Positions 16,873 to 34,832 of a DNA stretch of 64,000 nt are shown in pieces. The translations under genes and the position numbers were made by a program. Source of the stretch: Thermoleophilia bacterium (GTDB lineage: Bacteria; Actinomycetota; Thermoleophilia; Gaiellales; SKUG01); contig JAOPYV010000167.1 in the NCBI GenBank assembly GCA_025964435.1, positions 1,419 through 65,418 of the forward strand. Direction: 5' to 3'. The notes under the pieces are model-generated. The model made no database searches. It was not told where the DNA came from and was given only the letters and a program-made list of their open reading frames with translations. Within the stretch, counting starts at the first letter, position 1, and each line of letters begins with the position of its first letter.

Positions 16873-16886
16873 AATTCGACGGCCTG

Positions 16887-16915: not shown

Positions 16916-16978
16916 TATTGGCTGACGCAGCCGTCCGCGCCTGCGCGACGTCCTGACCGAATTTCCTGGAGCGCATCC

Positions 16979-20050: not shown

Positions 20051-20753
20051 CGCCAGATCCCACCGCTCGAAGCGCCGTCGCCTCGTTCCCGCCCTGCTCC
20101 TGCTCGCGTGCGCGCTGCCGATCGCTGGCTGCGCGGAGGATTCGCCGGCGGCCAACTCGGGACCGGTCAAGGTCCGTGCCGTGACGGACCCCGCGACGAG
20201 CACGAAGCTCGCCGAGGAGCTGGGCGCGACGGCCACCACCCTCACCGATGCCGGCTGCGTGTTCGGCAAGTACGACGAGGAGGAGGCGAACCACGTCGAC
20301 AGCGACGACCAGCTCAAGTGGAAGTCCTTCCCGCCGACCTCCGGCAACCACTTCGAGGCCTGGGCCCCGTGGGGTGAGTACGAGGCGGAGGTGCCGGATG
20401 GCAACACCGTCCACAACCTGGAGCACGGCGGCGTCGTCGTCTGGTTCGGCACCAAGGTCCAGGACGAGACCCGGTCCGCCGTCGCGGACCTGCTCAAGGA
20501 CGGCGACAAGTGGCTGCTGGCCCCGCGACGCGACATCGAAGGCCTCTTCTCGGGCGCGTGGGGCGTCGGCCTCTCCTGCCCGCCGGAAGCGCTGACCGAG
20601 CTCGGTCCCGACGGCACCGCCGACGTGCTGGACACGTGGTACGACACCGTCAACAGCACGGGCTCCGAGGCGGAGAAGGACCTGCCCGCCTACCCCGGCC
20701 CGATGAAGGAGCCGACCCCCAAGCGGGACATCTCCGTGGAGGCTCCCTTCTGA
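20034..20753 (+). CDS. DUF3105-family lipoprotein
   Basis: Lipobox LLLACALPIAGC. DUF3105-like core PPTSGNHF...HNLEHGGVVVWF. GGAG lies 8 nt upstream of ATG 20034. Confidence 0.8.
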   Translation: MHPSSDARSHRSKRRRLVPALLLLACALPIAGCAEDSPAANSGPVKVRAVTDPATSTKLAEELGATATTLTDAGCVFGKYDEEEANHVDSDDQLKWKSFPPTSGNHFEAWAPWGEYEAEVPDGNTVHNLEHGGVVVWFGTKVQDETRSAVADLLKDGDKWLLAPRRDIEGLFSGAWGVGLSCPPEALTELGPDGTADVLDTWYDTVNSTGSEAEKDLPAYPGPMKEPTPKRDISVEAPF

Positions 20754-21694
20754 TGGCGACTGCACAGTTCGGACGTGAGACCGGGAGCGACGGCTCCTGG
20801 AAGCGACAGCAGAGCGCCTTCCGTGACGGAGTGCGTGCCGACGGCTCGACGGGCTTCGCACCTGCCGCGGGGCGCTACCACCTCTACGTCTGCGCGGCCT
20901 GCCCCTGGGCGCATCGCGCGATCATCGTGCGCAAGCTCAAGGGGCTCGAAGATGCCATCGCGATGACCGTCGTCGACCCGCTCCGCGACGAGCACGGCTG
21001 GCGCTTCGGCCATGACGACGCCGAGACCGGCGATCGCGATCCGCTCCACGGCTGGACCTACCTCGCCGAGGCCTACCAGGCGAGCGACCCGACGTTCGAG
21101 GGTCGCGTGACGGTGCCGACGCTCTGGGACACGCAGACGGGCCGGATCGTCAACAACGAGTCGAGCGACGTCATTCGCATCCTGGGCTCCGAGTTCGATG
21201 AGTTCGCGACGAATCCCGAGCTCGACCTGTACCCCGCAGACCTGCGCGCGGAGATCGATGCCGTCAACGAGTGGGTCTACGCCGATATCAACAACGTCGT
21301 CTACCGCTGCGGCTTCGCCGTGACCCAGGAGGCCTACGACGACGCCTTCGACCGGCTCTTCGCTGGTCTCGACCGGGTCGAGGAGCTGCTGGGAACGCAG
21401 CGGTACCTGGCAGGCGATCGCATCACCGAGGCCGACTGGCGCCTGTTCACCACGCTCGTCCGCTTCGATGCCGTCTACGTCGGCCACTTCAAGTGCAACC
21501 TGCGGCGCATCGTCGACTACCCGAACACGTGGGCGTACGCGCGCGAGCTCTTCCAGGTCCCCGGCGTGGCGGAGACGGTCAACTTCGACCACATCAAGCG
21601 CCACTACTACGTCACGCATGACCAGATCAACCCGACCGGGATCGTGCCCAAGGGCCCCGCCATGGACTGGTCGACCCCGCACGGCCGTGGCTAG
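20753..21694 (+). CDS. yqjG: Glutathionyl-hydroquinone reductase (Xi/omega-like GST, YqjG/ECM4 type)
   Basis: CPWAHR active-site motif. GST C-terminal fold. TGATG overlap with the upstream gene. The first 81 codons of the track ORF are a spurious extension. Confidence 0.9.
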   Translation: MATAQFGRETGSDGSWKRQQSAFRDGVRADGSTGFAPAAGRYHLYVCAACPWAHRAIIVRKLKGLEDAIAMTVVDPLRDEHGWRFGHDDAETGDRDPLHGWTYLAEAYQASDPTFEGRVTVPTLWDTQTGRIVNNESSDVIRILGSEFDEFATNPELDLYPADLRAEIDAVNEWVYADINNVVYRCGFAVTQEAYDDAFDRLFAGLDRVEELLGTQRYLAGDRITEADWRLFTTLVRFDAVYVGHFKCNLRRIVDYPNTWAYARELFQVPGVAETVNFDHIKRHYYVTHDQINPTGIVPKGPAMDWSTPHGRG

Positions 21695-21764
21695 AGGACG
21701 TGGCCACGACCTGGGGCGTCGCTCACCTGCAGCACATCCAATGCACACATGCGACTCAGGAATT

Positions 21765-21774
21765 TTCGTACGAA
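21765..21774. promoter_or_regulatory. Perfect 10-bp palindrome TTCGTACGAA in the A/T-enriched leader of the giant gene
   Basis: Read directly from the sequence, ~40 nt upstream of ATG 21812. Confidence 0.3.
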
Positions 21775-21811
21775 CTCCGATGAAACTTCGGTGAGGATGA
21801 TCAGGGGAAGC

Positions 21812-24800
21812 ATGCGACACCGTCGTTCGACGGGTCGATGGGTGATGGGTGCCATTGGCGCTGCGCTCATGCTGCTCCTGATTTCCATCCCCGTCCTCGC
21901 CAACGGTGCCGGTTCCAAGGCGAAGCCCGCGAGCCCTGCCAAGGCCACGAAGCCCGCTGCGTGCAGCACGAAGTCGGCTGCCTATCGCGCCGCGAAGCCG
22001 GTGAAGCGTGGCTCGAAGGCCAAGCCCGTCAAGCCGCCGCGCGTCTGCCGCACGCCGCTGCCGCCGTCCGCGAAGTTCCTGCCCTCCTTCGTGCCGAGCA
22101 CCGTCGCCGCCGAGCTCGGCAAGCGCGAGAAGAACGGTGGCCAGCATGGCTGGGCCAAGCTCGGCGCGTCGCTCGGCTCGACCTCTTCCTTCACCGGTCC
22201 CAAGGGCAAGGTCGGCGTTCGACTGCTCGGCGCGCCGAGCGCGACCCGCACGGACTTCGAGAACGGCGCCGCCTACGTCACGAAGTCCTACACCGCGGTG
22301 CAGGTCTTCGAGGGCACCTCATTCAAGGAATCGATCGTCGTTCCCAAGCGGCTCGGCGCCCGCAACTGGAGCTGGAAGCTGACGCTCCCGAAGGGCCGCG
22401 TGCCCACGGTGCTGGCCAACGGCGGCGTCGACCTCGGCGTCGGCCTGTTCATCCCCGCCCCGGTCATCACCCGTGCCGACGGAACGACGATCAAGACGGG
22501 CTCGGCCTGGGCCGTGCGGGCGGACGGAACGCTGACGCTCCGCCTCAACGACAAGTCCTTCCCGACGCCGTACATCATCGATCCCGGCGTCGTGCCGGAG
22601 GTCGCCTTCACCGGCTTCTCCGGCGTGTCGGCCAACACCTACATCGATCCGGCGTACGCGTTGACCCGGATCTACTACAACGCCAGCCAGAGCGGCACCT
22701 TCACCGCCAACGCAGCGGTCCACGATCCCGACACGGCCACCCCCGTCGACGTCTGCTACCCGGCCTACGGTGCCGGCTGGACCTCCGATGGCGGCTGCGT
22801 CCCGGGCTCGGCCGGTGTCCCCCAGGGCGGCATCCTCGCCACGTACTACTCGGGAAGCACGAGCGGGTCGACCTACCCGGGCAGCGCCTTCACGACCAAC
22901 AACAACGGCGCCAACTGCGCCAACAACTCGGCGGGGGCCGTTGGTCCGTTCAGCCGCATCGAGCAGGGCATCAACTCCTACTCGAACTGGGGCACCGCTG
23001 GCGTCAACGACGACGCGCCGTATGCCGAGCTCTGCGCAGACAGCTTCTCGGGCAGGTGGCGTGGCGCGATCCGGACCGGTGCGACTGGCGGCATGCACCT
23101 GTTCGGCGCGATCTCCGACGATGGCATCCGCGTGACGATCAATGGCACGAGGATCCTGTCTGAGTGGAGCGAGCACACGCCTGCGTGGCACACCTCCTGC
23201 CCGATCACGCTGACAGCCAATACGACGTATCCGATCGAAGTCGAGTACTTCGAGAACAACAGCTCGAATCGCGCGCAGCTCCGATGGTGGACCCTTGGTT
23301 CCGGCAACGGCCCCGGTGGCACGGCCAACTGCCTGAATCCGGGTGACCCGATTCGCACGTGGATCCGGACCACGGCGGCTGGTTCCACCCCGTGGGCCCC
23401 GATCAACGAGACCGGCGTCAACGCGACGAATGGTACTGCTCCGACCAACTGGCCCATCATCCCGGCGGGGTCGACGACCACCCCCGGCCTGCACATGCCG
23501 TCCAACACGTTCGCACGAACGTACAGCTGGACTCCGACCGCGGCGGCGCCGAGCCCTGTGACACAGAACATCGTCGCCCGTGACGAGGACCCGGATCCCG
23601 ATCCGGGCACGACACCATTCACGGCCATCGCCGATGGCGTGGGTCCGACCGGCGGCACGATCTCGATCAGCGCGCCGCTGAACGGTGGTACGTACGCGGC
23701 CACGACGGGCGTCACGCTGAACTTCAATGCGAACGGCACGACGGACGGGACACCGGGGCTCGTGTCCGGCATGAAGCCCCAGAACGGCGAGATCCACCGA
23801 CAGGAGACGACCTACGCCAATGGTGCCTGTGGGGCATGGCCGACCACGTGGACGATCGGACCCGGCGTGACGAGCGCCGGCTCATCCATCGCGCCGACCG
23901 CGAACGTCTCGAACGATGCGACGCGTGTCGGTGGGCTCAGCAATGGCAAGTGCTATCGCTGGGCCGTCTCGTTCGAGGACAACGTCAGCAACTGGGGCGC
24001 CTCGACGCCGACGCCCGCGCTCATGATCGACACCGTCGCCCCGCCCGTGGCACCGGTCACCTTCACGGAGGTGACCAACCCTGCATGGATGCACGTCAGC
24101 GGCTCGACCCTCTACTACAACGGCAACACCGGCAACACGGGCACCTTCACCGTGGACGTCGCTGCCTCCGATCCAGTCTCCGGCGTCGAGAGCGTGACCT
24201 ACCCCGGATTCGCGACCTGGCCGACAGGCACGGCGGCAGCGGCTGACGCCGTGGCGCCGTACAGCCGGACCTACGGCTGGAATGACGCGTCGAGCGAGCC
24301 CGGTACCGGACTCAAGACCGTCGTTCAAGATGTTGCCACCAATGTCAGGGACAGCAACCTGTTCTCCGTCGTGCGTGACGTGACCGCCCCAGCAGCGGCG
24401 ACGATCACGTACACCAACGGCATGTACGGCTCGTCGTCCCACACTGTCGGCTTCAATCGCGGCAACGACGGCACCGGCTCGGGCCTGGCCACGTGGCACG
24501 TCGAGCGGCGGTCGACCCCGATGGTGGCCGGCGGCGTCTGCGACCCGTACAGCACCCCGTGGGCGCTCGATGGCGTCGTGGACCCAACCGGTACCAGCTA
24601 CGTCTCGACGGGCATGGTTGCCGGCAACTGCTACCAGTGGCAGGTCGTGTCCACCGACAACGTCGGCAACGTGACCACCGTCGCGAGCGCCAACGAGCTG
24701 AAGTACGACGATGTCGCGCCGGCTGCGTCCTTCGCTGGCATCGTCGGCGTGACCGGCAACGCCTGGCGTCAGCCGCTGACGAACACCATCTGGTTCAATA

Positions 24801-27800
24801 ACTCCACTGCCGGCGGATTCCGAGCCCAGGTCGTCGCCACGGATTCGCTCGGGGTCTCGGGCGTGAACTTCCCGGCCACCGGCGCTGCCGGCTGGGCAGG
24901 CCCAACTCCGACCTTCGATGCCACCGGCGTCGCGAACGTCTTCGAGAGCGCGCCGTACACCTGGGCCGCCGGAGCGGCTGACCCCGCCACCATCACGTCG
25001 GTCGCAACCGATGCCGCTGGCAACGCCGCGAACGTCACCTGGGACATCAACCTGGATACGACGGCACCCGCCGGCGGCACGCTGACGCTGCCGTCGCCGA
25101 TCCAGCAGTCGCTCACCATCCCGATCACGATCACCGTTCCCACCGACGCCGGATCCGGAATTGCCACATGGATCGTGGAGATGCAGTCCGGCACGCTCAG
25201 CAATGGCGCCTGCTCCGCGTACGGCGGCTACACGACCGTGCAGTCCGGAACCGGCACTCCGCCGACCTCGCTGAACATGGTCGTGGCGGGGTCCGGCTGC
25301 TACCTCGCGCGGCTCGTCACGACGGACAACGTCGGCAACGTCAACCCGGCGGGAGCAGCCTCCCCGACGCCAGCACGCGTCGACCAGTCCGCTCCCACGG
25401 TCGCCGTCACCGGCCCACCGGACAACTCCGCGCAGGGCGGCACCTTCACCATCTCCGGCACGGGCTCTGAGCCGCACTCTGCGCTCACCAACGTGTCGGT
25501 CACCTACACGGGTGCATCGACGGGCACCGCCTGCGCCAGCGCCACGCTGACGCCCGGCGCCCCGGGTGCATGGACCTGGACCTGCGCGTGGACCACGCCA
25601 CCCACCGATGGCATCTACACGCTGACGGTGACCGGAACCGACTCCGCCGGCAACGCGAGCACCGCGACGTGGCACTACCTCATCGACAACGTCGCACCGC
25701 TCGCGTCATTCACCTCGTGGACCGAGACATCGGCGTACCTGCACGCTCCGGGCGGTGCCGACAGCGACCTGCTCTGGTACAACCCGAGCGCTCCCGCCGC
25801 GGGCTCCGGCACGGTCACGGCGACGGTCACGGCGACTGACGCCGGCGCCGGCATGGACCGGGTCGACTTCCCCGGTCTGGGTGCTGCCGGCTGGTCGGGC
25901 AGCGGCTCGGACACCACCGTCGCGGCAGGCGACCTGTGGAGCTGGAACTACGCCTTCACCGGCGGTGGCGCAATCGGCAACCCGGCGCCGAACAACGCCG
26001 TCGCACGCGACCTTGCCGGCGCAACCACGGGCTCGCCCGCGCTCGACTTCCGGATCGAGCCGGATTCGACGCCGCCGGTCGGCTCGACGCACAGCGCATT
26101 CGGCGGGTTGCAGAGCGCCACCACGCTCACCTCGACGCTGGCGGTCGGCACGGACGCAGCATCCGGCGTCGCGCGCTACGCCTTCGAGCTCAACTTCGCT
26201 CCGCTCGAAGACGGCGTCTGCGGCGCGTGGGATGGCTGGGCACCAGGAGGCGGCAGCTACGCGAGCACGGCCAACGACGGTGACGTCATCACGTTCACGC
26301 ACACCATCAACGACCCCAACGGCGACGGCATTCCCGACTGGCGGGATTCGTTCTGCATGCAGGCGCGGGTCAACGTCTTCGACAACGTCGGGAACGTCGT
26401 CCAGGTCCCGCCGAACGGCATCGTCCGGATCGACCTGGCGGACCCGACGGTGGCCATCACGACGCCGGCGAGCGGCACGTCCCAGAGCGGCACCTTCAAC
26501 GTCGCCGGCACGGCGGACGACGACTACGTCGGCACCGCGCCGGAGTACCCGCTCACGGGCAGCGGCATCGATTACGTCACGGTCACGTACAGCGGACCCG
26601 CGACGGGCACGATCTGCGCGACCGCGCCAGTGACCGGACCCTGGACGGGCCATGGCTGGTCCTGCCCATGGGTGACCAGCGCACTCCCCGACGGCCTCTA
26701 CACCGTGACGGCCCGATCCCGCGACCGATCCGGCCGGCTGAGCACGATCAGCACGTCGACCTACACGCTCGACAACCAGGCGCCGATCATCAACTTCCAC
26801 TCGTGGCTCGAGGGTCTGGGCGGCGGGCAGATGCACGCAGTCGGCAACGTCGCCTGGATCAACCCGAGCGCACCTGCCGCGTCGTACGAGCTCGATGCGC
26901 GCGTGACGGCGACCGACGCCGGCAGCGGCGTGGCCAGCGTCAGCTTCCCGGCCTTCGGCGCCGGCTGGACGCCCAGCACGGCGGGGAACGCCACGCTGAC
27001 CTCACCCCTCCCCGTCGCCAACGCCTACACGCGCCCCTTCACCTTCAGCTCCGGCGGCAGCCTTGCAACTCCCGGGTCGCTCGTCGCCACGGCGACGGAC
27101 GGCGCGGGAAACACGGCGACGACGCCGTTCGAGGTGCGCTTCGACGGCGCCGCTCCGACCGGCGCGGCCACCAGCGTCGTGTCGGGCCTGCAGAACACGG
27201 CATCCGTCGCCGTGACCATCTCGCCCGGCGTCGAGGGCGCGCTGGAGTCCGGCCTCGCCACGTGGATGCTGCAGTACGACATGGCGCCGCTGGCCAATGA
27301 CACCTGTGGCGCGTTCGCCAACAGCTGGGGCGTCGTCGCCAACGGCGTCGGTATCGCTCCCGCGGCAATCAACCACGACGTGACGCTCCTCGGGAGTCAG
27401 TGCTACCGCTACCGCCTGCGCGTCGTGGACAACGTCGGGAATGGCGTCGACAGCGCCCCCTCGACCAACGCGCGGCGCGTCGACCTCGTCGCACCGACGG
27501 TGGCCACGCTGAACCCGGTCTCCGGCAGCGCGCACAGCGGCACCTTCACGGTCAGTGGCACGGCCACCGATGCGCACAGCGGCATCGACCACGTCCGGCT
27601 CACTTACCTGGGTGGCGGCGGCGGAACGATCTGCGATCCGGCAACCCTCGCCGGCACGTCGCCGAATTGGACCTTCAGCTGCAGCTGGAACACGTCCGCG
27701 CTCCCCGATGGCCCCTACACGATCCGCGCCGTCTCCTTCGACCGCGCCGGCACTCCGAGCGCACCGGTCGACATCGTCGTGAACCTCGACAACCAGCCAC

Positions 27801-30800
27801 CGTTCATCGGCTTCTACTCCTTCACCGAAACGAGCCCCTACACGCACTGGGCGGGACCTGTCGGCACCAACCAGCAGATCTGGTTCAACCCGGGCGCGCC
27901 CGCGGGCAGCCACTCCTTCGACGTCAATGTCACCGCCACCGACCTGGGCAGCGGCGTCGACCGCGTCGAGTTCGATGGTGCGGGCACCGGCTGGACCCCG
28001 GGGGCCGTCGTCGCCAGCGACGCCAGCTCGGCAGCGACGCCCGTGGCGGACAGCTACACGGCGACCTACACCTTCGACACGACGGTGCCCGGTCTCGTGG
28101 ATCCACCCACGCTCAAGGCGACGGCGTTCGATCCTGCCGGCAATCCCGGCGTCTCGACCTTCGAGGTCGTGGCTGACACCACCGCCCCGACCGCAGGATC
28201 CATCGGCTACTCCAACGGCTTCGTGCCGAGCACGAACGTCTCGGTCAGCATCGACACGGGCGGCGACGGCGCTGGATCCGGCATCAAGTCCTGGCAGCTC
28301 CTGCGCAGCGACGGCACCCTCTCCGCGTCGAGCTGCATCGGCTGGGGAGCGTTCACCACCTCGGTGGCGACCGGCACCGGCGCCTACGTGGGCTCGCAGT
28401 CCGACACGGTCACCGATCCCGGCTGCTTCCGCTACGAGCTCCGCGTGTGGGACAACGTCCACAACCTCGTGACGTGGACATCCCCCAACGAGATCATGGT
28501 GGACCTCGCGCCCCCGACCGGCACGATCGTCCTGGCACCCGCGACCTCACCCGCGAACCAGTACCTGGCAACGCCGACACGGCTGTACGTGAACACGAGC
28601 GCGGGCCACTCCGGCACCTTCACCGCCTCGGTCAACGCGAGCGCCGCCTCCGGCGTGCTCGACGTGAACTTCCCCGCACTGGCCGCCGGCTTCAGCGGTG
28701 ATGGCACGATGCCCGGACCCGGCCCGAACTTCGTACGTACCTACACCTGGGTCGCGGGCGCCAGCAACCCGCCTGCCGGCACCGTGGCCACCGTACAGTC
28801 CAACAGCCTCGGCTCCACGGGCCTGCCGTTCGACGTCGTCGCGGATCCGACGGCCCCGAGTGGCGGCACGACGACGTACACGAGCGGCTTCACCGCTGCG
28901 ACGACGGCGTCGATCAGCTACACGATCGGCACCGATGCCGGCGCCGGCATCGCAGGACACCAGCTCCAGCGCGAGGCAGGCACGCTCGCCGCAGGCGTCT
29001 GCACGTGGTCCAACACCTGGACGAACGCCGGTGCCGCGAATGGTCCGCTGACCTACAACGACCCCGTGCTGGCCCATGCGAGCTGCTACCGCTATCGCGT
29101 CGAGGTCACCGACCGCGTCGGCAACGTCGGCACCACCACGCCCGGCCTGCCGATCATGGTCGACACGACCGCCCCGACCGGTGCGACGCTGGTCTTCGTC
29201 GAGGATGCCACCGACTTCGCCTCGACGCACGTGCCGAGCGGATCCACGATCTACTACCGCAACGGTGCGGGCACGGTCGGCTCGCCCGAGAACTTCTGGA
29301 TGGAAGTGCGCGCGATCGACGCCGAATCCGGCACCGGCACCGTCAGCTTCCCCGTCCTCGCGGGCAACTGGTCCGCCAGCGCCGCCACGCCGGTCGCCGG
29401 CGGCTCGCGCGTCTCGTACGGACGCTGGACGACTGCGCTCGAGCCGGGTGTCGTCACGGCGATCGTGCCGAACGGCTCCGGCCTGACCACGACCATCACC
29501 GGCAACATCCTCGCGGACACGAGCGTCTCCAGCGCTGCCAACTGGTCGATCGACTACACCCACGGCTTCAACACGTCGACGAGCATCGTCGTCAACTGGG
29601 TCGATGACCTGACCGACGACCGCAGCGGCTTCGCCACGACGACGCTCCATCGCCGCGCCTATCCCTTCAACGTCGGCACCACCCTCTGTGACCAGTCGGG
29701 CTTCACCGACAGCTCGCTCGGCCTCGTGACGGGCACGACGCTCACGGATGCGTCGCTCGTGCGCCCCACGTGCTACCGCTACTGGCTGGCGATCACCGAC
29801 AACGTCGGCAACACCGCCGCGATCCATCCGACGACCGGCGGCACGACCCCGCCCCTGTTCGACACGGCGTGGCCGACCTGGGATTGGAAGACGACCGCTG
29901 CGGTCGACGACATCTACCCGCCCGCTGCCTTCGCCCTGACCCTGCCGACCAACCCGGTGCTGCCCGTGATCACCACGGCAGCAGCTGCCCCGTCGTGTGA
30001 GACCGTGCCGACCTTCGGCAGCTCGACGCCCGGTTTCGGCTGGAGCGCCTCGAGCGACGCGCAGTCCGGCCTTGATCGCTACGACGTGTACGTCGACGGC
30101 ACCGGCACGGTCGATGCTGCGGTCGCCGCCCCCGGAACGAGCTGGACGCCACCGGTGCTGGGCGACGGCGCCCACACGCTGGGCGTGCGAGCACTCGACG
30201 TGCAGGGCAACTTCACGAACGCCGGGCCGGCCTTCCCCGCCAACATCCGGATCGACGCGGCGGCACCGACGGCGACGCTGTCGACCCCTGCCAACGGCGG
30301 CTGGACGAGCGACACGACACCGACCCTGACGTGGTCGGCGGCCGACGCGAACTGCCTCGCCCGCGTGGAGGTCTACGTCGACAACCTCGTCACGCCCGTC
30401 GCGATCGCCAGCGGCAGCGAGACGTCGTGGACGCCGACCGGCGCGCTCGCCGAGGGCCTGCACAGCTGGCGCGTCGAGGCTGTCGATGCCTTCGGTCGAC
30501 GCACGAGCTCGCCCACCTCCAGCTTCGGCGTCGACACGATCGCCCCCGCTGCCTTCACGCTGGTCGCGCCGACCGCGGGCACCACGGTGCGCGGATTCAT
30601 CGACGTCACCTGGACCGCGTCGAGCGACGGTGGCAGCGGGCTGTCGGGCACCTCCGCATACCAGGTGCTCATCGACGGCATCGTGCGCACGACCGTGGGC
30701 TCCGCCATCACCACCGCGAACATCGCCGGCATCACCAGCGGCATCCATTCGGTCGAGGTGCGAGCGGTCGACCTCGTCGGCAACGCGACCCTGACCGCGA

Positions 30801-33304
30801 CCGAGAGCTTCACCGGCTACGGCGTCATTCCGCCGCCGACGCTCGTCTCGCCGGCGAACAACGCGCGCATCAACACCGTTCCGCCGCTCGACTGGAACTG
30901 GCCGAGCGACGGCGGACCCGCCCCGACCGACTACGACCTCCTCGTCGACGGCATCGTGGTGACCAACGTCACCCACCCGACCTCCGTCTTCACGATCCTG
31001 GATCCGGGCGACGGCGTCCACACCTGGCAGGTCGTGCAGCACGATCCCTACACGGGTACCGTCAGCAGCGTCACGCGGACGTTCACCCTGGATCGCACGG
31101 CGCCGACCAACACCGGCCCGCTGACCCGCGTCGTCACCACCATCTCGTGGCCCGCCGTGAGCGACCCGGTCGTGCCCGTGGCCACCGGCATCGACCGCCA
31201 GGAGTTCTGGATCGACAACGGCGGCGGCCCGACCCTCGCCGCGACCCTCGGCGCCGCTGCGACGTCGTACGACTACGGCGTGCTGCCCGATGGCATCTAC
31301 ACGATGTTCGTGCGCGCCTTCGACAACGCTGGCAACTCGACCGACACCGCGCCGATCGTCATCACGAATGACTCGGTGCCGCCGACGGCGTTCACGCTCA
31401 CGGCGCCCGGCGCGCTGCCCGCGCTGCCGGCGATCACCGTCGGCCCGAACACGCCGCCCAGCTGCGAGACCACACCGACCTACCTGTCGGCGACGCCGAC
31501 CTTCGCCTGGTCCGCATCGAGCGACGCCACCAGTGGCCTCGCGGGCTACGACATCTACATCGACGGCGGGCTCGTCACCACGGTCGGCGCCGGCGTGACC
31601 AGCTACGTGGTCGCCACGCCGCTGTCGGCAGGCGCCCACACCTGGCACGTCGAAGCTCGCGACAACTTCGGCCTCTCCCGCAGCTCCACACCTGCCCCGA
31701 TGAACGTTCGGATCGATGCCGCATCGCCCACCGCGACGCAGGTCGCCCCGGCGAACGCATCCTTCACCGGCAACGCCACGCCGAGCCTGTCGTGGACCGC
31801 GGGTGACGACAACTGTGCAGCCCGGACCGAGCTGACCGTCGATGGCACGGTCATCGGAACCTTCGCGCCGACGACGAACTCCTGGTCGCCGACCGTTGCG
31901 CTCGCCGATGGCGCGCACACGTGGTCGATCCGCGTGTTCGACAGCGCCGGCAACATCACATCGAGCGGTGCGGCACGCACCTTCACCGTCGACACGACGC
32001 CGCCGTCCGCCATCACCGCCGTCTCGCCCGTCAACGCAGGCAGCATCAACGAGGGCATGCTGACCTTCGACTGGACCGACGGGACCGACACCGGTTCGGG
32101 CGTCAGTCGCTACGACATCGCCGTCGACGGCGTGCCCGTCCAGTCGAACCTGAGCGCCTCGACGCATGGCACGGTCGCCATCCACGCCGGCGTGCACACG
32201 TGGAGCATCCGCGCCTACGACGCCGTCGGGAACTTCGCCGACTTCACGTTCAGCTTCACGGCGCTGGCGGTTCCCGATGTCACGGCCCCGAACGCCTTCG
32301 ACCTGCTGACCCCGACCAATGGCGCCGCGATCACCGCCGGCACGGCGCTCTCATGGTCGCCTGCCTGGGACTTCTACGGAATCGCGAGCTACCGCATCTA
32401 CATCGACGGCCAGCTCTCCGGCACCGTGGCTGGCAACGTCACGAGCTTCACGCCGACCGTCGGCGTGGGCTCGCCGATCTGCTCCGTCGACTACGACCCG
32501 AGCGTCACGGCCGCCTGCATCACGGGCCAGACCTTCACCAACGGTGAGGTCGCCGGCGGACTGTCGACGCCGCCCGCCGTACCGTCCTCGAGCTGGAATG
32601 CCGCCGCCCAGGCCGGCTGGAGCGCCGCCGGCAACGCCTATGGCGTCGGCGATGCGGCCGTCACGCCCATCACCGCGGCAGCCGCTGGCTTCGATGGCGA
32701 CCGCATGTGGACCGCAATGGAGTACACCTCCAGCGTTCCCGCTGGTGGCGCCGACCTGCGCTTCGAACATCGCTACCGCTTCCACCGCCAGGGCGAGACG
32801 GTCCATGATGGCGGCACCGTCGAGCTGATGATCGATGACGCGGGCGACGGCTTCGGCAACGATACGTGGGAGACGACCTGCACCTACGGCGCACACGATA
32901 CGTACGGCGCTTCGGTGGCGTGTGACCACGAGGTCGTCGAGGCGGACGGCGGCTACGACGCAGTCTTCGCCGGGCCGGCAGCCAACCATCCGCTCGCGCA
33001 CCAGAACGGCTTCTCCGGCAGCCCCACCACGACGCAGCAGACCAAGATCCGGCTCTCGGAGTTCGCGGGCAAGGATATCCGCTTCCGCTTCCGCATCGGC
33101 ATGGATTCCTGCTACTCGGGCCAGGCGGCGTTCCGTGACGCGTACTGTCAGCCGCCGTTCGGCCGTGCCGTCTGGCGCATCGACAACGTGACGATGGCGA
33201 ACCCGTCGCTGCTGCCGGGCGCGCACACCTGGAACGTGCAGGCCGTCGACCCGTCGGGCAACGCGAGGACCTCGAACCAGACCTGGAACTTCAACCTGTC
33301 GTGA
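21812..33304 (+). CDS. Giant secreted multi-domain surface or adhesin-like protein (~3,830 aa)
   Basis: An uninterrupted 11.5-kb ORF with high GC3. Layout: signal peptide (MRHRRSTGRWVMGAIGAALMLLLISIPVLA), Lys/Pro/Ala-rich linker, PA14 domain, more than 25 Ig/FN3-like modules, and a C-terminal jelly-roll-like domain. Start is uncertain (21749-21845). Confidence 0.9.
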   Translation: MRHRRSTGRWVMGAIGAALMLLLISIPVLANGAGSKAKPASPAKATKPAACSTKSAAYRAAKPVKRGSKAKPVKPPRVCRTPLPPSAKFLPSFVPSTVAAELGKREKNGGQHGWAKLGASLGSTSSFTGPKGKVGVRLLGAPSATRTDFENGAAYVTKSYTAVQVFEGTSFKESIVVPKRLGARNWSWKLTLPKGRVPTVLANGGVDLGVGLFIPAPVITRADGTTIKTGSAWAVRADGTLTLRLNDKSFPTPYIIDPGVVPEVAFTGFSGVSANTYIDPAYALTRIYYNASQSGTFTANAAVHDPDTATPVDVCYPAYGAGWTSDGGCVPGSAGVPQGGILATYYSGSTSGSTYPGSAFTTNNNGANCANNSAGAVGPFSRIEQGINSYSNWGTAGVNDDAPYAELCADSFSGRWRGAIRTGATGGMHLFGAISDDGIRVTINGTRILSEWSEHTPAWHTSCPITLTANTTYPIEVEYFENNSSNRAQLRWWTLGSGNGPGGTANCLNPGDPIRTWIRTTAAGSTPWAPINETGVNATNGTAPTNWPIIPAGSTTTPGLHMPSNTFARTYSWTPTAAAPSPVTQNIVARDEDPDPDPGTTPFTAIADGVGPTGGTISISAPLNGGTYAATTGVTLNFNANGTTDGTPGLVSGMKPQNGEIHRQETTYANGACGAWPTTWTIGPGVTSAGSSIAPTANVSNDATRVGGLSNGKCYRWAVSFEDNVSNWGASTPTPALMIDTVAPPVAPVTFTEVTNPAWMHVSGSTLYYNGNTGNTGTFTVDVAASDPVSGVESVTYPGFATWPTGTAAAADAVAPYSRTYGWNDASSEPGTGLKTVVQDVATNVRDSNLFSVVRDVTAPAAATITYTNGMYGSSSHTVGFNRGNDGTGSGLATWHVERRSTPMVAGGVCDPYSTPWALDGVVDPTGTSYVSTGMVAGNCYQWQVVSTDNVGNVTTVASANELKYDDVAPAASFAGIVGVTGNAWRQPLTNTIWFNNSTAGGFRAQVVATDSLGVSGVNFPATGAAGWAGPTPTFDATGVANVFESAPYTWAAGAADPATITSVATDAAGNAANVTWDINLDTTAPAGGTLTLPSPIQQSLTIPITITVPTDAGSGIATWIVEMQSGTLSNGACSAYGGYTTVQSGTGTPPTSLNMVVAGSGCYLARLVTTDNVGNVNPAGAASPTPARVDQSAPTVAVTGPPDNSAQGGTFTISGTGSEPHSALTNVSVTYTGASTGTACASATLTPGAPGAWTWTCAWTTPPTDGIYTLTVTGTDSAGNASTATWHYLIDNVAPLASFTSWTETSAYLHAPGGADSDLLWYNPSAPAAGSGTVTATVTATDAGAGMDRVDFPGLGAAGWSGSGSDTTVAAGDLWSWNYAFTGGGAIGNPAPNNAVARDLAGATTGSPALDFRIEPDSTPPVGSTHSAFGGLQSATTLTSTLAVGTDAASGVARYAFELNFAPLEDGVCGAWDGWAPGGGSYASTANDGDVITFTHTINDPNGDGIPDWRDSFCMQARVNVFDNVGNVVQVPPNGIVRIDLADPTVAITTPASGTSQSGTFNVAGTADDDYVGTAPEYPLTGSGIDYVTVTYSGPATGTICATAPVTGPWTGHGWSCPWVTSALPDGLYTVTARSRDRSGRLSTISTSTYTLDNQAPIINFHSWLEGLGGGQMHAVGNVAWINPSAPAASYELDARVTATDAGSGVASVSFPAFGAGWTPSTAGNATLTSPLPVANAYTRPFTFSSGGSLATPGSLVATATDGAGNTATTPFEVRFDGAAPTGAATSVVSGLQNTASVAVTISPGVEGALESGLATWMLQYDMAPLANDTCGAFANSWGVVANGVGIAPAAINHDVTLLGSQCYRYRLRVVDNVGNGVDSAPSTNARRVDLVAPTVATLNPVSGSAHSGTFTVSGTATDAHSGIDHVRLTYLGGGGGTICDPATLAGTSPNWTFSCSWNTSALPDGPYTIRAVSFDRAGTPSAPVDIVVNLDNQPPFIGFYSFTETSPYTHWAGPVGTNQQIWFNPGAPAGSHSFDVNVTATDLGSGVDRVEFDGAGTGWTPGAVVASDASSAATPVADSYTATYTFDTTVPGLVDPPTLKATAFDPAGNPGVSTFEVVADTTAPTAGSIGYSNGFVPSTNVSVSIDTGGDGAGSGIKSWQLLRSDGTLSASSCIGWGAFTTSVATGTGAYVGSQSDTVTDPGCFRYELRVWDNVHNLVTWTSPNEIMVDLAPPTGTIVLAPATSPANQYLATPTRLYVNTSAGHSGTFTASVNASAASGVLDVNFPALAAGFSGDGTMPGPGPNFVRTYTWVAGASNPPAGTVATVQSNSLGSTGLPFDVVADPTAPSGGTTTYTSGFTAATTASISYTIGTDAGAGIAGHQLQREAGTLAAGVCTWSNTWTNAGAANGPLTYNDPVLAHASCYRYRVEVTDRVGNVGTTTPGLPIMVDTTAPTGATLVFVEDATDFASTHVPSGSTIYYRNGAGTVGSPENFWMEVRAIDAESGTGTVSFPVLAGNWSASAATPVAGGSRVSYGRWTTALEPGVVTAIVPNGSGLTTTITGNILADTSVSSAANWSIDYTHGFNTSTSIVVNWVDDLTDDRSGFATTTLHRRAYPFNVGTTLCDQSGFTDSSLGLVTGTTLTDASLVRPTCYRYWLAITDNVGNTAAIHPTTGGTTPPLFDTAWPTWDWKTTAAVDDIYPPAAFALTLPTNPVLPVITTAAAAPSCETVPTFGSSTPGFGWSASSDAQSGLDRYDVYVDGTGTVDAAVAAPGTSWTPPVLGDGAHTLGVRALDVQGNFTNAGPAFPANIRIDAAAPTATLSTPANGGWTSDTTPTLTWSAADANCLARVEVYVDNLVTPVAIASGSETSWTPTGALAEGLHSWRVEAVDAFGRRTSSPTSSFGVDTIAPAAFTLVAPTAGTTVRGFIDVTWTASSDGGSGLSGTSAYQVLIDGIVRTTVGSAITTANIAGITSGIHSVEVRAVDLVGNATLTATESFTGYGVIPPPTLVSPANNARINTVPPLDWNWPSDGGPAPTDYDLLVDGIVVTNVTHPTSVFTILDPGDGVHTWQVVQHDPYTGTVSSVTRTFTLDRTAPTNTGPLTRVVTTISWPAVSDPVVPVATGIDRQEFWIDNGGGPTLAATLGAAATSYDYGVLPDGIYTMFVRAFDNAGNSTDTAPIVITNDSVPPTAFTLTAPGALPALPAITVGPNTPPSCETTPTYLSATPTFAWSASSDATSGLAGYDIYIDGGLVTTVGAGVTSYVVATPLSAGAHTWHVEARDNFGLSRSSTPAPMNVRIDAASPTATQVAPANASFTGNATPSLSWTAGDDNCAARTELTVDGTVIGTFAPTTNSWSPTVALADGAHTWSIRVFDSAGNITSSGAARTFTVDTTPPSAITAVSPVNAGSINEGMLTFDWTDGTDTGSGVSRYDIAVDGVPVQSNLSASTHGTVAIHAGVHTWSIRAYDAVGNFADFTFSFTALAVPDVTAPNAFDLLTPTNGAAITAGTALSWSPAWDFYGIASYRIYIDGQLSGTVAGNVTSFTPTVGVGSPICSVDYDPSVTAACITGQTFTNGEVAGGLSTPPAVPSSSWNAAAQAGWSAAGNAYGVGDAAVTPITAAAAGFDGDRMWTAMEYTSSVPAGGADLRFEHRYRFHRQGETVHDGGTVELMIDDAGDGFGNDTWETTCTYGAHDTYGASVACDHEVVEADGGYDAVFAGPAANHPLAHQNGFSGSPTTTQQTKIRLSEFAGKDIRFRFRIGMDSCYSGQAAFRDAYCQPPFGRAVWRIDNVTMANPSLLPGAHTWNVQAVDPSGNARTSNQTWNFNLS
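22826..23294 (+). other. PA14 domain within the giant protein
   Basis: GILATYYSGS...FSGRWRGAIRTGATGGMHLFGAISDDGIRVTINGTRIL...TYPIEVEYFENNSSNRAQLRWW matches the PA14 pattern (YY, F..RW.G, DDG.rv.ing, Y.i.veY.e). Confidence 0.8.
24029..29900 (+). repeat. Divergent protein-level super-repeats inside the giant gene (A-B and A-B-C domain units)
   Basis: Units begin with D-x-x-A/P-P at nt 24029, 24707, 25685, 26771, 27788, 28502 and 29162. Three full A-B-C triads lie at 24707-25684, 25685-26770 and 26771-27787. A is xWxNPSAPA...VTATDxGSGVxxVxFP, B is SGxAxW...CGAW...DNVGNV, and C is APTVA...SGTFxxxGTAxD...WxCxWxTSALPDGxYT. Confidence 0.75.
29905..32270 (+). repeat. Two paralogous ~0.9-kb three-domain blocks in the giant gene (29905-30830 and 31370-32270)
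   Basis: The blocks are collinear at roughly 40-50% identity by eye. Examples: PSCETVPTFGSSTPGFGWSASSDAQSGLDRYDVYVDG vs PSCETTPTYLSATPTFAWSASSDATSGLAGYDIYIDG; IDAAAPTATLSTPANGGWTSDTTPTLTWSAADANC vs IDAASPTATQVAPANASFTGNATPSLSWTAGDDNC. Confidence 0.75.
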
Positions 33305-34832
33305 CGTGGTCCTCGGCGATGATGTGTCGGCCGAGCTGCGTGAAGACCGGGTCGTGGACCGGGGCGATGACGCCCCAGTAAAGCCCGCTCCAGATCGAGT
33401 CGTTCTCCAGCGTCGCGAGCTGGTGCAGTCGCGAACCGCCGGGCCGGGGTTCGATCCGGAAGTCGAGCCGCGCCGCACCCGGCACGCGCATCTCCGCCAC
33501 GAGCCGGAGCTGTCGTTCCGGCACGAGTCGCTCCACCCGCCAGAAGTCGAGCGCATCGCCGACGTGCAGCTGATCGCCGGGCGGTCGGCCACGTCGCAGG
33601 CCCGGCCCACCGGTCACGCGGTCGAACAGCCCGCGCAGCCGCCAGAGCGGGTCGACGTGTCGCCCGTAGCCGTTGCTCCCGCCGATCTCCACGACCCGGC
33701 GGTACAGCTCCGCGGGCGTCAGGCTCGTATCGAAGGTGCGGTAGTCGCGGAACTCCTCGCGCTGCGGCCAGAATCGAACGCGTGTGCGCAGGCGCGGGCC
33801 GGGTTCCCGCCCGACGCTCGACGGCGGGCGGATGCCCTGGCGCTGCGCGTCGGCCCACCGTGATTCGCGCAGGTCCGCAGCGGCGATCTTGTCGAGCGCG
33901 CGACGCACCGAGAGACGGTAGGAGCTCAGCTCGCGCGGCATCCACTCGCGGATGCGCAGGTCGTCGCAGACGACGTCGTTGCGCAGGCCCTCCACGAGCG
34001 GACGGGCGACGTCCATGTCGACGCTTGTCACGAGGTGGAGCCAGTAGGACGAGAGCCGCGGGGAGATCAGCGGCACCGTCACGTTGCGGAACGGCAGACC
34101 AAGCTCTTCTGCGCAGATCCGGATCAGGTCGACGTAGCGATGCACGTCACCCGACCCGATCTCGAGCACTTCGCCGATCGTGCGCGGCTCGTCGAGCACG
34201 CCGACGAGGTACCACGTGACATCGCGGATCGCGATCGGCTCACACTGGCTGTCCACCCAGCGCGGCGTCAGCATCGCGGGGAGTCGACGCGCGAGGTCAT
34301 GGATCATGTCGAACGATGCACTTCCGGAGCCCACGATCACCGCTGCGCGCAGCTCCGTGACCGGCACGCCGGCCTCAGCCAGCGCCTCGCCGGTGTCGTG
34401 ACGACTACGCAGGTGCATCGACAGGTCGTCGGTGTCACGCCCCAGGCCGCTCAGGTAGATGATCCGTTGCACGCCCGCCGCGGCGCAGGCTGCACCGAAG
34501 TTGCGCGCCGCGGTGATGTCAGCCGTCGCGAACCCGCCCGACTTGTTCGGATGGCCGCCACCCATCGAGTGCACGAGGTAATAGGCGGCGTCGACGCCGA
34601 CCAGCGCGCGCTCGAGGCTCGCTGGATCGAAGACGTCACCCTGCACCACCTCGAGGCCCGCGTCGTCGCGGAAGGCGCGACTGGCCAGCTTGGCGGGCGT
34701 GCGGGCCAGCGCGCGCACGCGTCGACCGGATTCCAGCAGCTCGGGGATGAGCCGCCCGCCGACGTAACCCGTGGCTCCCGCGACCAGCACGACCTGGGTC
34801 GATTCGTCACGTGGTGCTGCGGCTTCGTCCAT
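33291..34832 (-). CDS. NAD(P)-binding SDR-family protein with a C-terminal DUF2867-like domain
   Basis: Rossmann motif VLVAGATGYVGGRL. The C-terminal half resembles DUF2867/SRPBCC-like tails. 14-nt convergent overlap with the end of the giant gene. Confidence 0.85.
   Translation of the reverse strand: MDEAAAPRDESTQVVLVAGATGYVGGRLIPELLESGRRVRALARTPAKLASRAFRDDAGLEVVQGDVFDPASLERALVGVDAAYYLVHSMGGGHPNKSGGFATADITAARNFGAACAAAGVQRIIYLSGLGRDTDDLSMHLRSRHDTGEALAEAGVPVTELRAAVIVGSGSASFDMIHDLARRLPAMLTPRWVDSQCEPIAIRDVTWYLVGVLDEPRTIGEVLEIGSGDVHRYVDLIRICAEELGLPFRNVTVPLISPRLSSYWLHLVTSVDMDVARPLVEGLRNDVVCDDLRIREWMPRELSSYRLSVRRALDKIAAADLRESRWADAQRQGIRPPSSVGREPGPRLRTRVRFWPQREEFRDYRTFDTSLTPAELYRRVVEIGGSNGYGRHVDPLWRLRGLFDRVTGGPGLRRGRPPGDQLHVGDALDFWRVERLVPERQLRLVAEMRVPGAARLDFRIEPRPGGSRLHQLATLENDSIWSGLYWGVIAPVHDPVFTQLGRHIIAEDHVTTG

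What the first reader, a model, noticed from the sequence alone, without database searches (positions are those of the whole stretch)
21812..33304. An 11.5-kb single gene for a ~3,830-aa secreted PA14/Ig-repeat protein with no recognisable anchor
One uninterrupted ORF occupies 18% of the window. Its layout is:
1. Signal peptide.
2. KPA-rich spacer.
3. ~300 aa of unknown fold.
4. PA14 domain.
5. More than 25 Ig/FN3-like modules.
6. A ~240-aa C-terminal Cys-containing jelly-roll-like domain (...RFEHRYRFHRQGETVHDGGTVELMIDD...IRFRFRIGMDSCY...WRIDNV).

The same window encodes an LPXTG protein, yet the giant protein has no LPXTG motif, no C-terminal TM, no SLH domain and no choline-binding-like anchor. 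How it is retained or exported is therefore open.

The gene is translationally isolated, with its own 117-nt A/T-enriched leader.
Basis: partly seen in the sequence, partly recalled or inferred. Interest (0 to 1): 0.55.

Follow-up and report, generated by a model that had tools for sequence, protein, structure and literature searches.

The report
Giant anchorless Ig-repeat surface protein
This is a real, intact 3,830-residue secreted stalk-like adhesin-type protein of a soil actinobacterial lineage (Thermoleophilia); it carries no known cell-wall anchor, which is common for such proteins, but its conserved positively charged head and an unusual domain-within-a-domain tail are candidate attachment ends.

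Summary
Window 21812-33304 (+) is one uninterrupted, coding-biased ORF of 3,830 aa (391 kDa, pI 4.6).

Its layout is:
- a cleavable Sec-type signal peptide;
- a Lys/Pro/Ala-rich segment of net charge +16;
- a 170-aa domain with no Pfam, NCBIfam or PDB sequence match;
- an Ig-like module, then PA14;
- 19 Ig-like modules in D-C(-Big_7) super-repeats;
- 9 Big_13/OmpL47-type modules.

- The "~300 aa unknown" region is a 170-aa domain plus one Ig module.
- The Cys-containing "jelly roll" is not terminal. It is a divergent InhA-like MAM domain inserted inside the last Ig module.

No LPXTG, C-terminal TM, SLH, LysM, choline-binding or RTX element was found.

Colinear orthologues (48-55% identity) occur in other Thermoleophilia and Gaiellales assemblies, where the flanks are held at the same chromosomal position. 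Its repeats are diverged at DNA level. It is therefore neither a pseudogene nor a collapsed repeat.

It is a new member of the fibrillar-adhesin kind, of which nearly half lack a known anchor. My best guess, at modest confidence, is non-covalent retention through the conserved cationic disulfide-loop head. Which end holds the cell is unresolved. Interest is modest.

The parts
21695..21811 (+). 117-nt leader. It contains the conserved motif GACTCAGGA[AT]-N13/14-CCGAT-N8-GGTGAG (21753-21796) and an SD-like GGGGAA stretch (21803-21808).
   Evidence: 56% GC. The motif is unique in the window (0.04 expected). It recurs once in front of the orthologous genes in L004 and L005. No Rfam family matches.
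21812..21901 (+). Sec-type signal peptide, residues 1-30, with predicted cleavage VLA|NG.
   Evidence: It is the only segment with 19-residue hydropathy >1.6. AXA-like sites are conserved in the relatives: VFA|G, AVA|Q, ADA|R. This is a heuristic reading; no SignalP tool was available.
21902..22093 (+). Cationic Lys/Pro/Ala-rich segment, residues 31-94, with a Cys51...Cys79 loop ending in RVCRT.
   Evidence: Net charge +16, pI 11.3, while the rest of the protein is -152. A Cys-bounded basic loop is found in all five relatives. The flanking segment has net charge +11 to +23 in 4 of 5.
22094..22606 (+). Conserved N-terminal domain of unknown fold, residues 95-265 (motifs KESI, W.W, PY[IV][IV]DP).
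   Evidence: Alignment A3 of five relatives. No Pfam hit at E<=10. No meaningful PDB sequence hit. No paralogue in the window.
22607..22954 (+). First Ig-like module (D type), residues 266-381.
   Evidence: Self-profile D, E 3e-23.
22955..23311 (+). PA14 domain, residues about 382-500. The DDG motif is retained.
   Evidence: PF07691, E 2.8e-11 and 4.6e-12, above the gathering score. It is absent from relatives P0012 and P0014.
23297..29854 (+). Stalk part 1, residues 496-2681: 19 Ig-like modules arranged as D-C pairs, three of them with an extra Big_7 module. Most C and Big_7 modules carry one Cys pair.
   Evidence: Self-profiles and Pfam Big_7 / Big_3_3. It is colinear in P0013 and L003.
29978..32290 (+). 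Stalk part 2, residues 2723-3493: eight Big_13 / OmpL47-type Ig-like modules in two homologous blocks.
   Evidence: Pfam Big_13 2.6e-41, NCBIfam barrel_OmpL47 3.3e-27. Module alignment.
32285..32461 (+). N-terminal part (strands A-E) of the last Ig-like module, residues 3492-3550.
   Evidence: It matches E-module profile positions 6-61.
32462..33199 (+). Inserted InhA-like MAM jelly-roll domain with three Cys pairs, residues 3551-3796.
   Evidence: hhalign probability 99.9% to a set of domains, of which the five proteins scanned score as PF20773. AF2 pLDDT 83.7. Foldseek hits to reelin, neuropilin MAM, InhA2 and CBMs.
33200..33304 (+). C-terminal part (strands F-G) of the last Ig-like module, residues 3797-3830, plus the stop codon. 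It overlaps the convergent NmrA/DUF2867 gene by 14 nt.
   Evidence: It matches E-module profile positions 63-89. The spliced module scores 50.9 bits end to end. The ...NQTW.FNL end is conserved.

Best explanation
Identity (about 0.85 confidence).
The gene encodes a functional giant extracellular protein of the fibrillar-adhesin kind, specific to the Thermoleophilia lineage. It is exported by Sec and its signal peptide is cut by signal peptidase I. It folds outside the cell into a stalk of about 29 Ig-like modules, roughly 100-130 nm long if extended. That length is inferred from about 4 nm per Ig domain. Many modules carry a Cys pair that could form a disulfide.

The stalk is strongly acidic: pI 4.4, net charge about -150. 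It has two conserved ends:
- An N-terminal head: a polycationic Cys-bounded loop, then a 170-aa beta-rich domain of unknown fold. In this lineage an Ig module and a PA14 lectin-type domain follow.
- A C-terminal block of Big_13 modules. The last module carries an inserted MAM-like jelly-roll domain.

Retention (inferred, about 0.4 confidence).
There is no covalent or membrane anchor. The cationic head is the first part to leave the translocon. I propose that it sticks electrostatically to the anionic membrane and wall polymers. The adjacent domain and the PA14 lectin may help by binding wall glycans. The polyanionic stalk is then repelled outwards and presents the MAM domain as the distal binding or self-association tip.
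For: Real gene:
- The ORF is intact and GC3 is high throughout.
- Colinear orthologues exist: L003 at 53% identity over 3,738 aligned positions as a single ORF, P0013/L004 of 3,800 aa, L005 at 48% identity, and P0014.
- Upstream synteny Lon-RND-DUF3105-GST-giant is kept in L005 and in part in L004; the convergent downstream NmrA/DUF2867 gene is kept in L001 and L002.

Domains:
- PA14, Big_13, Big_7 and OmpL47-type modules.
- Self-profiles give about 29 modules.
- The MAM insert is nested in the last module.

Export:
- There is a single N-terminal hydrophobic segment.
- AXA-like cleavage sites are conserved in the relatives.
- The 40 Cys sit mostly as two per module.

Charge dipole:
- The first 200 aa carry +29, and every later 200-aa bin up to residue 3800 is negative.
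- The segment containing the Cys-bounded loop has net charge +11 to +23 in 4 of 5 relatives. Its sequence is not conserved: it is K/P/A-rich here and R-rich elsewhere. That pattern is what non-specific electrostatic binding predicts.

Conserved ends:
- Relatives P0012, P0014 and L005 replace some or all of the region after the N-domain with different modules but keep the head. P0012 and P0014 also keep the tail; L005 is cut before its C-terminus.
Against: - Nothing here shows localisation. The retention step rests on charge arithmetic and analogy.
[quoted passage not shown] That would argue for the opposite orientation.
- The cassette that varies between relatives (PA14 or another module set) lies next to the N-head, as expected for a ligand-binding tip.
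- Lys/Pro/Ala-rich tails in mycobacterial HBHA and Hlp are ligand-binding rather than anchoring (my own knowledge, not tested here).
- In P0014 the segment around the loop is only about +1 net, and its N-domain is not basic.
- Neither end occurs in any other protein of the window or the fetched loci, whereas true anchor modules are usually shared by many proteins.
Confidence: 0.45

Rival explanations
1. Opposite orientation, the usual Gram-positive layout. The conserved C-terminal block is a non-covalent cell-wall-binding module that works like a carbohydrate-binding module on a wall glycopolymer; it consists of the Big_13 modules and the MAM-in-Ig domain. The N-terminal head, made of the cationic loop, the N-domain and PA14, is then the distal adhesive tip for anionic or glycan ligands.
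For: - The C-terminal third is the most conserved part among orthologues, at 55-76% identity. It is kept even in P0012, which shares little else.
- The fold resembles CBM61, CBM11 and other beta-sandwich CBMs as well as MAM domains.
- The variable cassette (PA14 or other) is N-proximal.
- The survey of fibrillar adhesins finds N-terminal adhesive domains in Actinobacteria and Firmicutes even when no sortase motif is present (PMC8286594).
Against: - No known wall-binding family matches the C-terminus.
- The MAM domain is acidic, pI 4.65.
- MAM domains are known for protein-protein rather than wall binding (own knowledge).
- A segment of +16 charge would have to escape an anionic envelope to reach the tip.
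Confidence: 0.25
2. The protein is not retained at all. It is released and acts as an extracellular matrix or bridging protein. Its two different binding ends cross-link cells, polymers or particles into a biofilm or aggregate.
For: - No anchor of any known type was found.
- The signal peptide looks cleavable.
- There are two conserved, dissimilar end modules separated by a long spacer.
- Two other secreted Ig/fn3-containing proteins in the window also end without anchors.
Against: - A 391-kDa protein is costly to release freely.
- The strict conservation of length and module number across 48-55% identical orthologues suggests a defined reach from a surface. This is an argument from plausibility only.
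Confidence: 0.2
3. The N-terminal hydrophobic segment is an uncleaved signal-anchor, so the protein is a type II membrane protein. The K/P/A-rich segment then serves as a wall-spanning spacer.
For: - The h-region is long, 21 residues, enough to span a membrane.
- Pro/Ala/Lys-rich wall-spanning segments are known next to anchors in Gram-positive surface proteins (own knowledge).
Against: - Good -3/-1 cleavage sites with a helix-breaking Pro or Ser in the c-region are present here and in three relatives.
- The spacer is not K/P/A-rich in the relatives. There it is an Arg-rich Cys-bounded loop.
Confidence: 0.08
4. The ORF is an assembly artefact (collapsed or mis-joined repeats) or a decaying pseudogene.
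For: - A closely related MAG (GCA_027247695.1) breaks its contig about 1.9 kb into the gene.
- One metagenomic homologue (L001) has a frame change near its 3' end.
Against: - There are no near-identical DNA repeats. The best repeat families are 60-74% identical over about 50 nt.
- The frame is uninterrupted and GC3 is uniform.
- L003, L004/P0013 and L005 carry colinear, intact genes of the same module order.
Confidence: 0.02

Closest known systems
Fibrillar adhesin-like proteins as defined by Monzon et al. 2021 (PMC8286594), e.g. S. aureus SdrG/Cna-type proteins and the 7,651-aa Mobiluncus mulieris giant adhesin (PMC10619420)
   Same: A single huge secreted polypeptide. It has a long stalk of tandem Ig-like domains (Big_13 and Big_7 types), an adhesive-type domain (PA14 is named in that survey among adhesive domains that form tandem repeats), a signal peptide, and internal cross-links (Cys pairs here).
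   Different: There is no LPXTG or other known anchor. The head and the MAM-in-Ig tail are not described for those proteins. It comes from an uncultured environmental Thermoleophilia lineage, not a host-associated bacterium. No isopeptide, ester or thioester domains were detected by Pfam.
RTX giant adhesins of Gram-negative bacteria (MpIBP of Marinomonas primoryensis, LapA)
   Same: The overall logic is shared: a retention module at the N-terminus, a very long Ig-like spacer, and ligand-binding domains (a PA14-like sugar-binding domain in MpIBP) on a stalk hundreds of kDa in size. This is the same polarity as my preferred model.
   Different: Those proteins are exported by a type I system with a C-terminal signal and RTX repeats, and they plug an outer-membrane pore. 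Here there is a Sec signal peptide, no RTX/HemolysinCabind match, a host presumed monoderm because it encodes a sortase substrate, and diverged rather than near-identical repeats.
InhA-like MAM domain (Pfam PF20773; Bacillus immune inhibitor A2, PDB 4YU5) and eukaryotic MAM / reelin subrepeat B jelly rolls
   Same: The inserted domain shares the motif pattern L.F.H.Y...DGG.VE...GGY...NPLA...F.G.S.G....L..FAGK.I..RFR.G.D...W.IDN. A profile-profile match gives 99.9% probability. Structural hits include 4yu5, 5l73, 7lyu and 6a48.
   Different: The window sequence itself does not reach the Pfam threshold. It has extra Cys-bounded loops. It is inserted into the E-F loop region of an Ig-like module instead of standing alone or following a protease domain.
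Lys/Ala/Pro-rich polycationic tails of mycobacterial HBHA and Hlp/LBP (from my own knowledge, not tested here)
   Same: A short, extremely basic K/A/P-rich segment on a surface-exposed actinobacterial protein that could bind polyanions.
   Different: Those tails are C-terminal, repeat-based and bind host sulphated glycans. Here the segment is N-terminal and bounded by two conserved Cys. In the relatives it is replaced by Arg-rich sequence.

Membership tests
Fibrillar adhesin-like protein (Monzon et al. 2021 definition) | Tandem stalk domains forming a long extracellular polypeptide | tested here: met
   About 29 Ig-like modules. Pfam Big_13 2.6e-41, Big_7 1.2e-27; NCBIfam OmpL47-type barrel; self-profiles.
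Fibrillar adhesin-like protein (Monzon et al. 2021 definition) | At least one recognised adhesive domain | tested here: met
   PA14 PF07691 at 43.9-46.4 bits, above the cut-off of 24. PA14 is named among adhesive domains in PMC8286594. Binding itself was not tested.
Fibrillar adhesin-like protein (Monzon et al. 2021 definition) | Attachment to the cell surface by an anchor | tested here: not met
   No known anchor family or motif was found. The survey itself found nearly half of such proteins without a known anchor. Actual localisation cannot be tested here.
Sortase-anchored (LPXTG/LAXTG) surface proteins | Sorting motif within the last ~50 residues, followed by a hydrophobic segment and a basic tail | tested here: not met
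   The protein ends ...SNQTWNFNLS. The nearest P-containing motif lies 184 residues from the end. Maximum hydropathy outside the signal peptide is 1.45. As a positive control, an LPVTG protein was detected at 58730-59383.
PA14 domain (PF07691) | Score above the Pfam gathering threshold | tested here: met
   43.9 bits in the whole protein and 46.4 bits in the segment, against a cut-off of 24.
PA14 domain (PF07691) | Calcium/carbohydrate site (Asp-cis-Asp loop of lectin-type PA14 domains) | tested here: inconclusive
   A DDG motif is present (AISDDGIRV). The second loop could not be mapped without a structure.
InhA-like MAM domain (PF20773) | Score above the Pfam gathering threshold (26.9 bits) | tested here: not met
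   No hit for the window sequence at E<=10. One of four close homologues reached only E 0.014.
InhA-like MAM domain (PF20773) | Homology by profile-profile comparison and jelly-roll fold | tested here: met
   An exhaustive profile search reaches proteins; in the five scanned, the matched stretch is PF20773 at 51-97 bits in four and 31.7 bits in P0029. hhalign gives probability 99.9%, E 7e-32. The AF2 model has pLDDT 83.7, and Foldseek hits 4yu5, 5l73, 7lyu and 6a48. Caveat: the remote set was selected by matching the query profile.
RTX / type I-secreted giant adhesins | RTX nonapeptide repeats and a C-terminal T1SS signal, with no Sec signal peptide | tested here: not met
   No HemolysinCabind or related hit at E<=0.1. 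An N-terminal Sec-type signal peptide is present.
Non-covalent wall-binding families (SLH, LysM, GW, choline-binding, PG_binding, WxL) | Presence of the corresponding domain | tested here: not met
   None was reported by Pfam or NCBIfam at E<=0.1 on the whole protein or at E<=10 on N-terminal segments.

The most novel reading that the evidence does not exclude
One of the two conserved ends is a previously unrecognised non-covalent cell-envelope anchor. It would let Thermoleophilia display giant stalk proteins without sortase, SLH or a membrane anchor. The candidates are the N-terminal polycationic disulfide loop with its 170-aa domain, and the C-terminal MAM-inside-Ig module. Because nearly half of fibrillar adhesin-like proteins lack a known anchor, this would supply one concrete new solution to that gap.
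Probability: 0.3. Interest if true: 0.55.

Novelty: new member of a known kind. Interest (0 to 1): 0.33.

Why it matters
Giant Ig-repeat surface proteins are the main way many bacteria reach out to surfaces and to each other. For nearly half of those predicted (PMC8286594), nobody knows how they stay on the cell.

This family gives a clean, testable case in a barely studied, mostly uncultured soil actinobacterial class. It has two conserved and separable end modules, a charge dipole, and natural variants in which the middle is swapped. It also documents a domain-in-domain arrangement, MAM inside an Ig module, and a 170-aa domain without any database match.

Beyond that it is an ordinary representative of a well-known kind of protein. 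No new mechanism is demonstrated.

Tried and rejected
- **Shallow structure prediction.** AF2 on the C-terminal 341 aa with a 4-sequence alignment gave pLDDT 39, which is unusable. It was repeated with 37 sequences.
- **PDB sequence searches.** The MAM profile found nothing. The N-domain profile found only spurious hits to designed propellers, with per-domain scores of 1-2 bits.
- **Word-indexed protein searches.** They found only 3-5 relatives. The exhaustive search was needed.
- **Genome-collection scans.** The scan with the C-terminal profile found nothing. The scan with the N-domain found two MAGs.
- **Riboswitch or leader RNA.** No Rfam family matches around the leader. No sigma-70-like promoter or terminator was found, though this is uninformative for this phylum.
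- **Tat export.** Rejected. The RR in MRHRRS is not followed by the Tat consensus and is absent from the relatives.
- **Functional link to the neighbours.** The neighbours are Lon, an RND pump, DUF3105, a GST and NmrA. The synteny is conserved, but I found no basis for a role in export or anchoring.
- **Exact look-up.** The full protein is not on record in the assembly collection.
- **Literature.** No paper was found on InhA MAM domains or on Thermoleophilia adhesins.
Full report
**1. Is it there?**

Yes. The + strand carries a single open frame from 21749 to 33304. The ATG at 21812 is preceded by GGGGAA and starts MRHRRSTGRW..., giving 3,830 codons without a stop.

Third-position GC is 0.85-0.93 in every 900-nt block of the gene, so the frame is coding throughout. 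The 1,216-codon antisense ORF inside it is a high-GC by-product.

The gene is 11,493 nt, 18% of the window. The upstream gene is a YqjG-type GST that ends at 21694. This leaves a 117-nt leader of 56% GC in a 68-73% GC window. The downstream gene (NmrA + DUF2867) is convergent and overlaps the 3' end by 14 nt.

**2. Is it an artefact or a pseudogene?**

No.
- Tandem Repeats Finder sees only two trivial arrays. The best dispersed repeat families are about 50 nt at 60-74% identity. Nothing here would make an assembler collapse.
- Metagenome contig Ga0105047_10005335 (L003) holds one ORF colinear with residues 168-3830, at 53% identity over 3,738 aligned positions.
- P0013 (3,800 aa) is encoded in Thermoleophilia MAG RYN_238 (L004). 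It is colinear module by module with few gaps.
- A Gaiellales MAG (L005) and P0014 are colinear over about 2,500 residues.
- Module number is therefore stable across 48-55% identical orthologues.
- Where the flanks are held, the locus is syntenic: Lon, RND pump, DUF3105 and GST upstream of the giant gene in L005 and in part L004, and the convergent NmrA gene downstream in L001 and L002.

A nearly identical MAG contig (GCA_027247695.1, 10 mismatches in 2,876 nt) simply ends 1.9 kb into the gene. It is annotated there as a partial hypothetical protein of a Thermoleophilia bacterium. One homologue (L001) has a frame change near its 3' end.

**3. Anatomy (residue numbers from Met at 21812)**

| Residues | Feature | Evidence |
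|---|---|---|
| 1-30 | Signal peptide | Basic n-region, 21-residue h-region, Pro at -4, V-L-A at -3 to -1. It is the only hydrophobic segment in the protein. |
| 31-94 | A/P/K-rich segment | Net +16, pI 11.3, with Cys51 and Cys79. |
| 95-265 | Domain of unknown fold | No Pfam hit even at E<=10 and no real PDB sequence match. Conserved in all relatives (KESI, W.W, PY[IV][IV]DP). |
| 266-381 | Ig-like module | Self-profile. |
| about 382-500 | PA14 |. |
| 496-2681 | 19 Ig-like modules of three subtypes | Arranged as D-C pairs, three of them with an extra Big_7 module. |
| 2723-3830 | Nine Big_13 / OmpL47-type modules | Two homologous blocks. |

- The 40 cysteines sit mostly as two per module, as expected for an exported, disulfide-bonded protein.
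- The whole protein is 391 kDa with pI 4.6.

**4. The C-terminal "jelly roll"**

It is real, but it is not the terminus.
- A profile of the eight preceding modules matches residues 3492-3550 over profile positions 6-61, and residues 3797-3830 over positions 63-89.
- The two pieces spliced together match end to end (50.9 bits, E 3e-17).
- So residues 3551-3796 are an insertion into the last Ig-like module.

Identity of the insert:
- Pfam does not recognise the insert directly. The best result is InhA-like_MAM at E 0.014 in one homologue.
- An exhaustive profile search found 332 proteins. In the five remote hits scanned, the matched stretch lies in a PF20773 InhA-like MAM domain (51-97 bits in four, 31.7 bits in P0029), often alongside reelin subrepeat-B matches.
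- A profile-profile comparison of the close family against that set gives 99.9% probability, E 7e-32. The set was selected by similarity to the query, so the independent evidence is its Pfam annotation.
- With a 37-sequence alignment, AlphaFold2 gives pLDDT 83.7 and pTM 0.80.
- Foldseek finds reelin repeats, the neuropilin-1 MAM domain, InhA2 and several beta-sandwich carbohydrate-binding modules. TM-scores are modest, up to about 0.47 on the target, as expected for a two-domain query.
- Five Cys of the insert are invariant among the four aligned close homologues, and a sixth is kept in three of them.

**5. The family**

Full-length relatives are 3,564-3,800 aa. L005 encodes more than 3,590 residues before its locus ends. 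P0012, P0013 and P0014 end about 32-35 residues after the MAM insert with ...QTW.F..., and none has a sorting signal; L005 is cut before its C-terminus.

All share the head:
- a signal peptide with an AXA-like site (except P0014, whose called N-terminus shows none);
- a Cys...Cys loop of 27-48 residues (ending RVC[RT] here, in P0013 and in L005; Cys followed by basic residues in P0012 and P0014);
- the 170-aa domain.

The loop's sequence is not conserved: it is K/P/A-rich here and Arg-rich and helix-like elsewhere. The positive charge of the surrounding segment is conserved (+11 to +23 in four of five, about +1 in P0014). The rest of each protein carries -121 to -206.

The region after the head is swappable.
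- P0012, P0014 and L005 replace some or all of the region after the N-domain with different modules; Pfam finds no PA14 in P0012 or P0014.
- P0012 shares only the head and the last ~460 residues. It lies in a 57% GC contig with a quite different neighbourhood.

No relative of the C-terminal domain was found in the 185,579 GTDB species representatives. The N-domain was found in just two Thermoleophilia-class MAGs. No paralogue of either end exists in the window or the fetched loci.

**6. Anchor question**

Every test was negative.
- There is no LPXTG or LAXTG-like motif near the end, and no second hydrophobic segment.
- Pfam and NCBIfam report no Gram_pos_anchor, SLH, LysM, GW, choline-binding, PG-binding, WxL or RTX family.
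- The organism does use sortase substrates: an LPVTG protein lies at 58730-59383.

Export is not mysterious. The signal peptides are ordinary Sec type, and the single RR is not a Tat motif and is not conserved.

The absence of an anchor is also not unusual. In the survey of fibrillar adhesin-like proteins, nearly half had none of the known anchors, and only 20% of those had a predicted transmembrane helix (PMC8286594).

**7. Mechanism**

Shown:
- a real, conserved gene for a Sec-exported, acidic stalk protein of 29 Ig-like modules;
- a PA14 domain;
- two conserved, distinct ends.

Inferred:
- It works as a fibrillar adhesin or cell-surface fibre of roughly 100-130 nm.
- My preferred retention model (about 0.4) is electrostatic. 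The polycationic head leaves the translocon first and binds the anionic membrane and wall. The neighbouring domain and the PA14 lectin possibly bind wall glycans. The polyanionic stalk is repelled outwards, and the MAM domain forms the tip. Conservation of charge without conservation of sequence fits this.
- The main rival (about 0.25) is the usual Gram-positive polarity. There the conserved C-terminal block binds the wall like a carbohydrate-binding module, and the head with its variable cassette is the adhesive tip.
- A third possibility (about 0.2) is that the protein is released and bridges cells or particles by its two ends.
- An uncleaved signal-anchor (about 0.08) and an artefact (about 0.02) are unlikely.
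- Sequence alone cannot decide the polarity.

**8. Comparison and verdict**

The closest known kind is the fibrillar adhesin, for example sortase-anchored Ig-repeat adhesins and the actinobacterial Mobiluncus giant adhesin (PMC10619420).

My preferred polarity resembles RTX adhesins such as MpIBP. The defining features of that family were tested and are absent: type I secretion and RTX repeats.

The protein is best filed as a new, uncharacterised member of the fibrillar-adhesin kind. It is restricted to Thermoleophilia-class bacteria. It has three noteworthy details: the MAM-inside-Ig tail, an unmatched N-terminal domain, and a conserved cationic disulfide loop.

Interest is modest (0.33). It would rise if one of the ends proved to be a new anchor type.

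Noticed in passing
window 21753-21796; L004 1747-1772; L005 9530-9556: The leader contains the motif GACTCAGGA[AT]-N13/14-CCGAT-N8-GGTGAG. The same motif lies in front of the orthologous giant genes of a Thermoleophilia MAG and a Gaiellales MAG, while the surrounding intergenic DNA has diverged. It occurs once in the 64-kb window (0.04 expected). It could be a promoter, possibly for an alternative or ECF-type sigma factor, or a regulator site. No Rfam family matches.
   Followed up: partly
L007 8001-19220 (Logan SRR10178536 contig, 57% GC): Relative P0012 (3,739 aa) keeps only the N-terminal head and the last ~460 residues. Its stalk is made of about 100-aa fn3-like repeats. It sits among DNA methylases and Macro, DNA_pol_A_exo1 and DUF4326 genes. 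This is a different neighbourhood, possibly a mobile element, in a lower-GC organism.
   Followed up: partly
window 14536-21694 and 33291-34832; L005 544-7756; L004 3-1634; L001, L002: The gene order Lon protease, AcrB-type RND pump, DUF3105, YqjG-type GST, giant gene is kept in L005 and in part in L004. The convergent NmrA+DUF2867 gene downstream is kept in L001 and L002, with the 14-nt 3' overlap reproduced in both. No functional link could be inferred.
   Followed up: partly
window 20827-23702 (= GCA_027247695.1 contig JAPYUZ010000015.1): A public MAG of a near-identical strain (10 mismatches in 2,876 nt) breaks inside the gene. Its annotation starts the protein at Met20 (window 21869), which cuts off most of the signal peptide. 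Public annotation therefore hides both the size and the secretion signal.
   Followed up: yes
window 47027-48637 and 49231-51564: Two further secreted proteins have signal peptides and C-terminal fn3/Ig-like domains but no anchor: a trypsin-like protease with an fn3 domain, and a 777-aa protein with a Big_7 module. Neither has the cationic Cys loop.
   Followed up: partly
window 58196-59383: An LPVTG-anchored protein of about 150-217 aa with no Pfam domain lies directly after a cyclic-nucleotide-binding protein. No sortase gene was seen in the ORFs I scanned.
   Followed up: no
window 28547-32197 (-): A 1,216-codon antisense ORF lies inside the giant gene. Codon-position GC favours the + strand, so it is a high-GC artefact.
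   Followed up: yes
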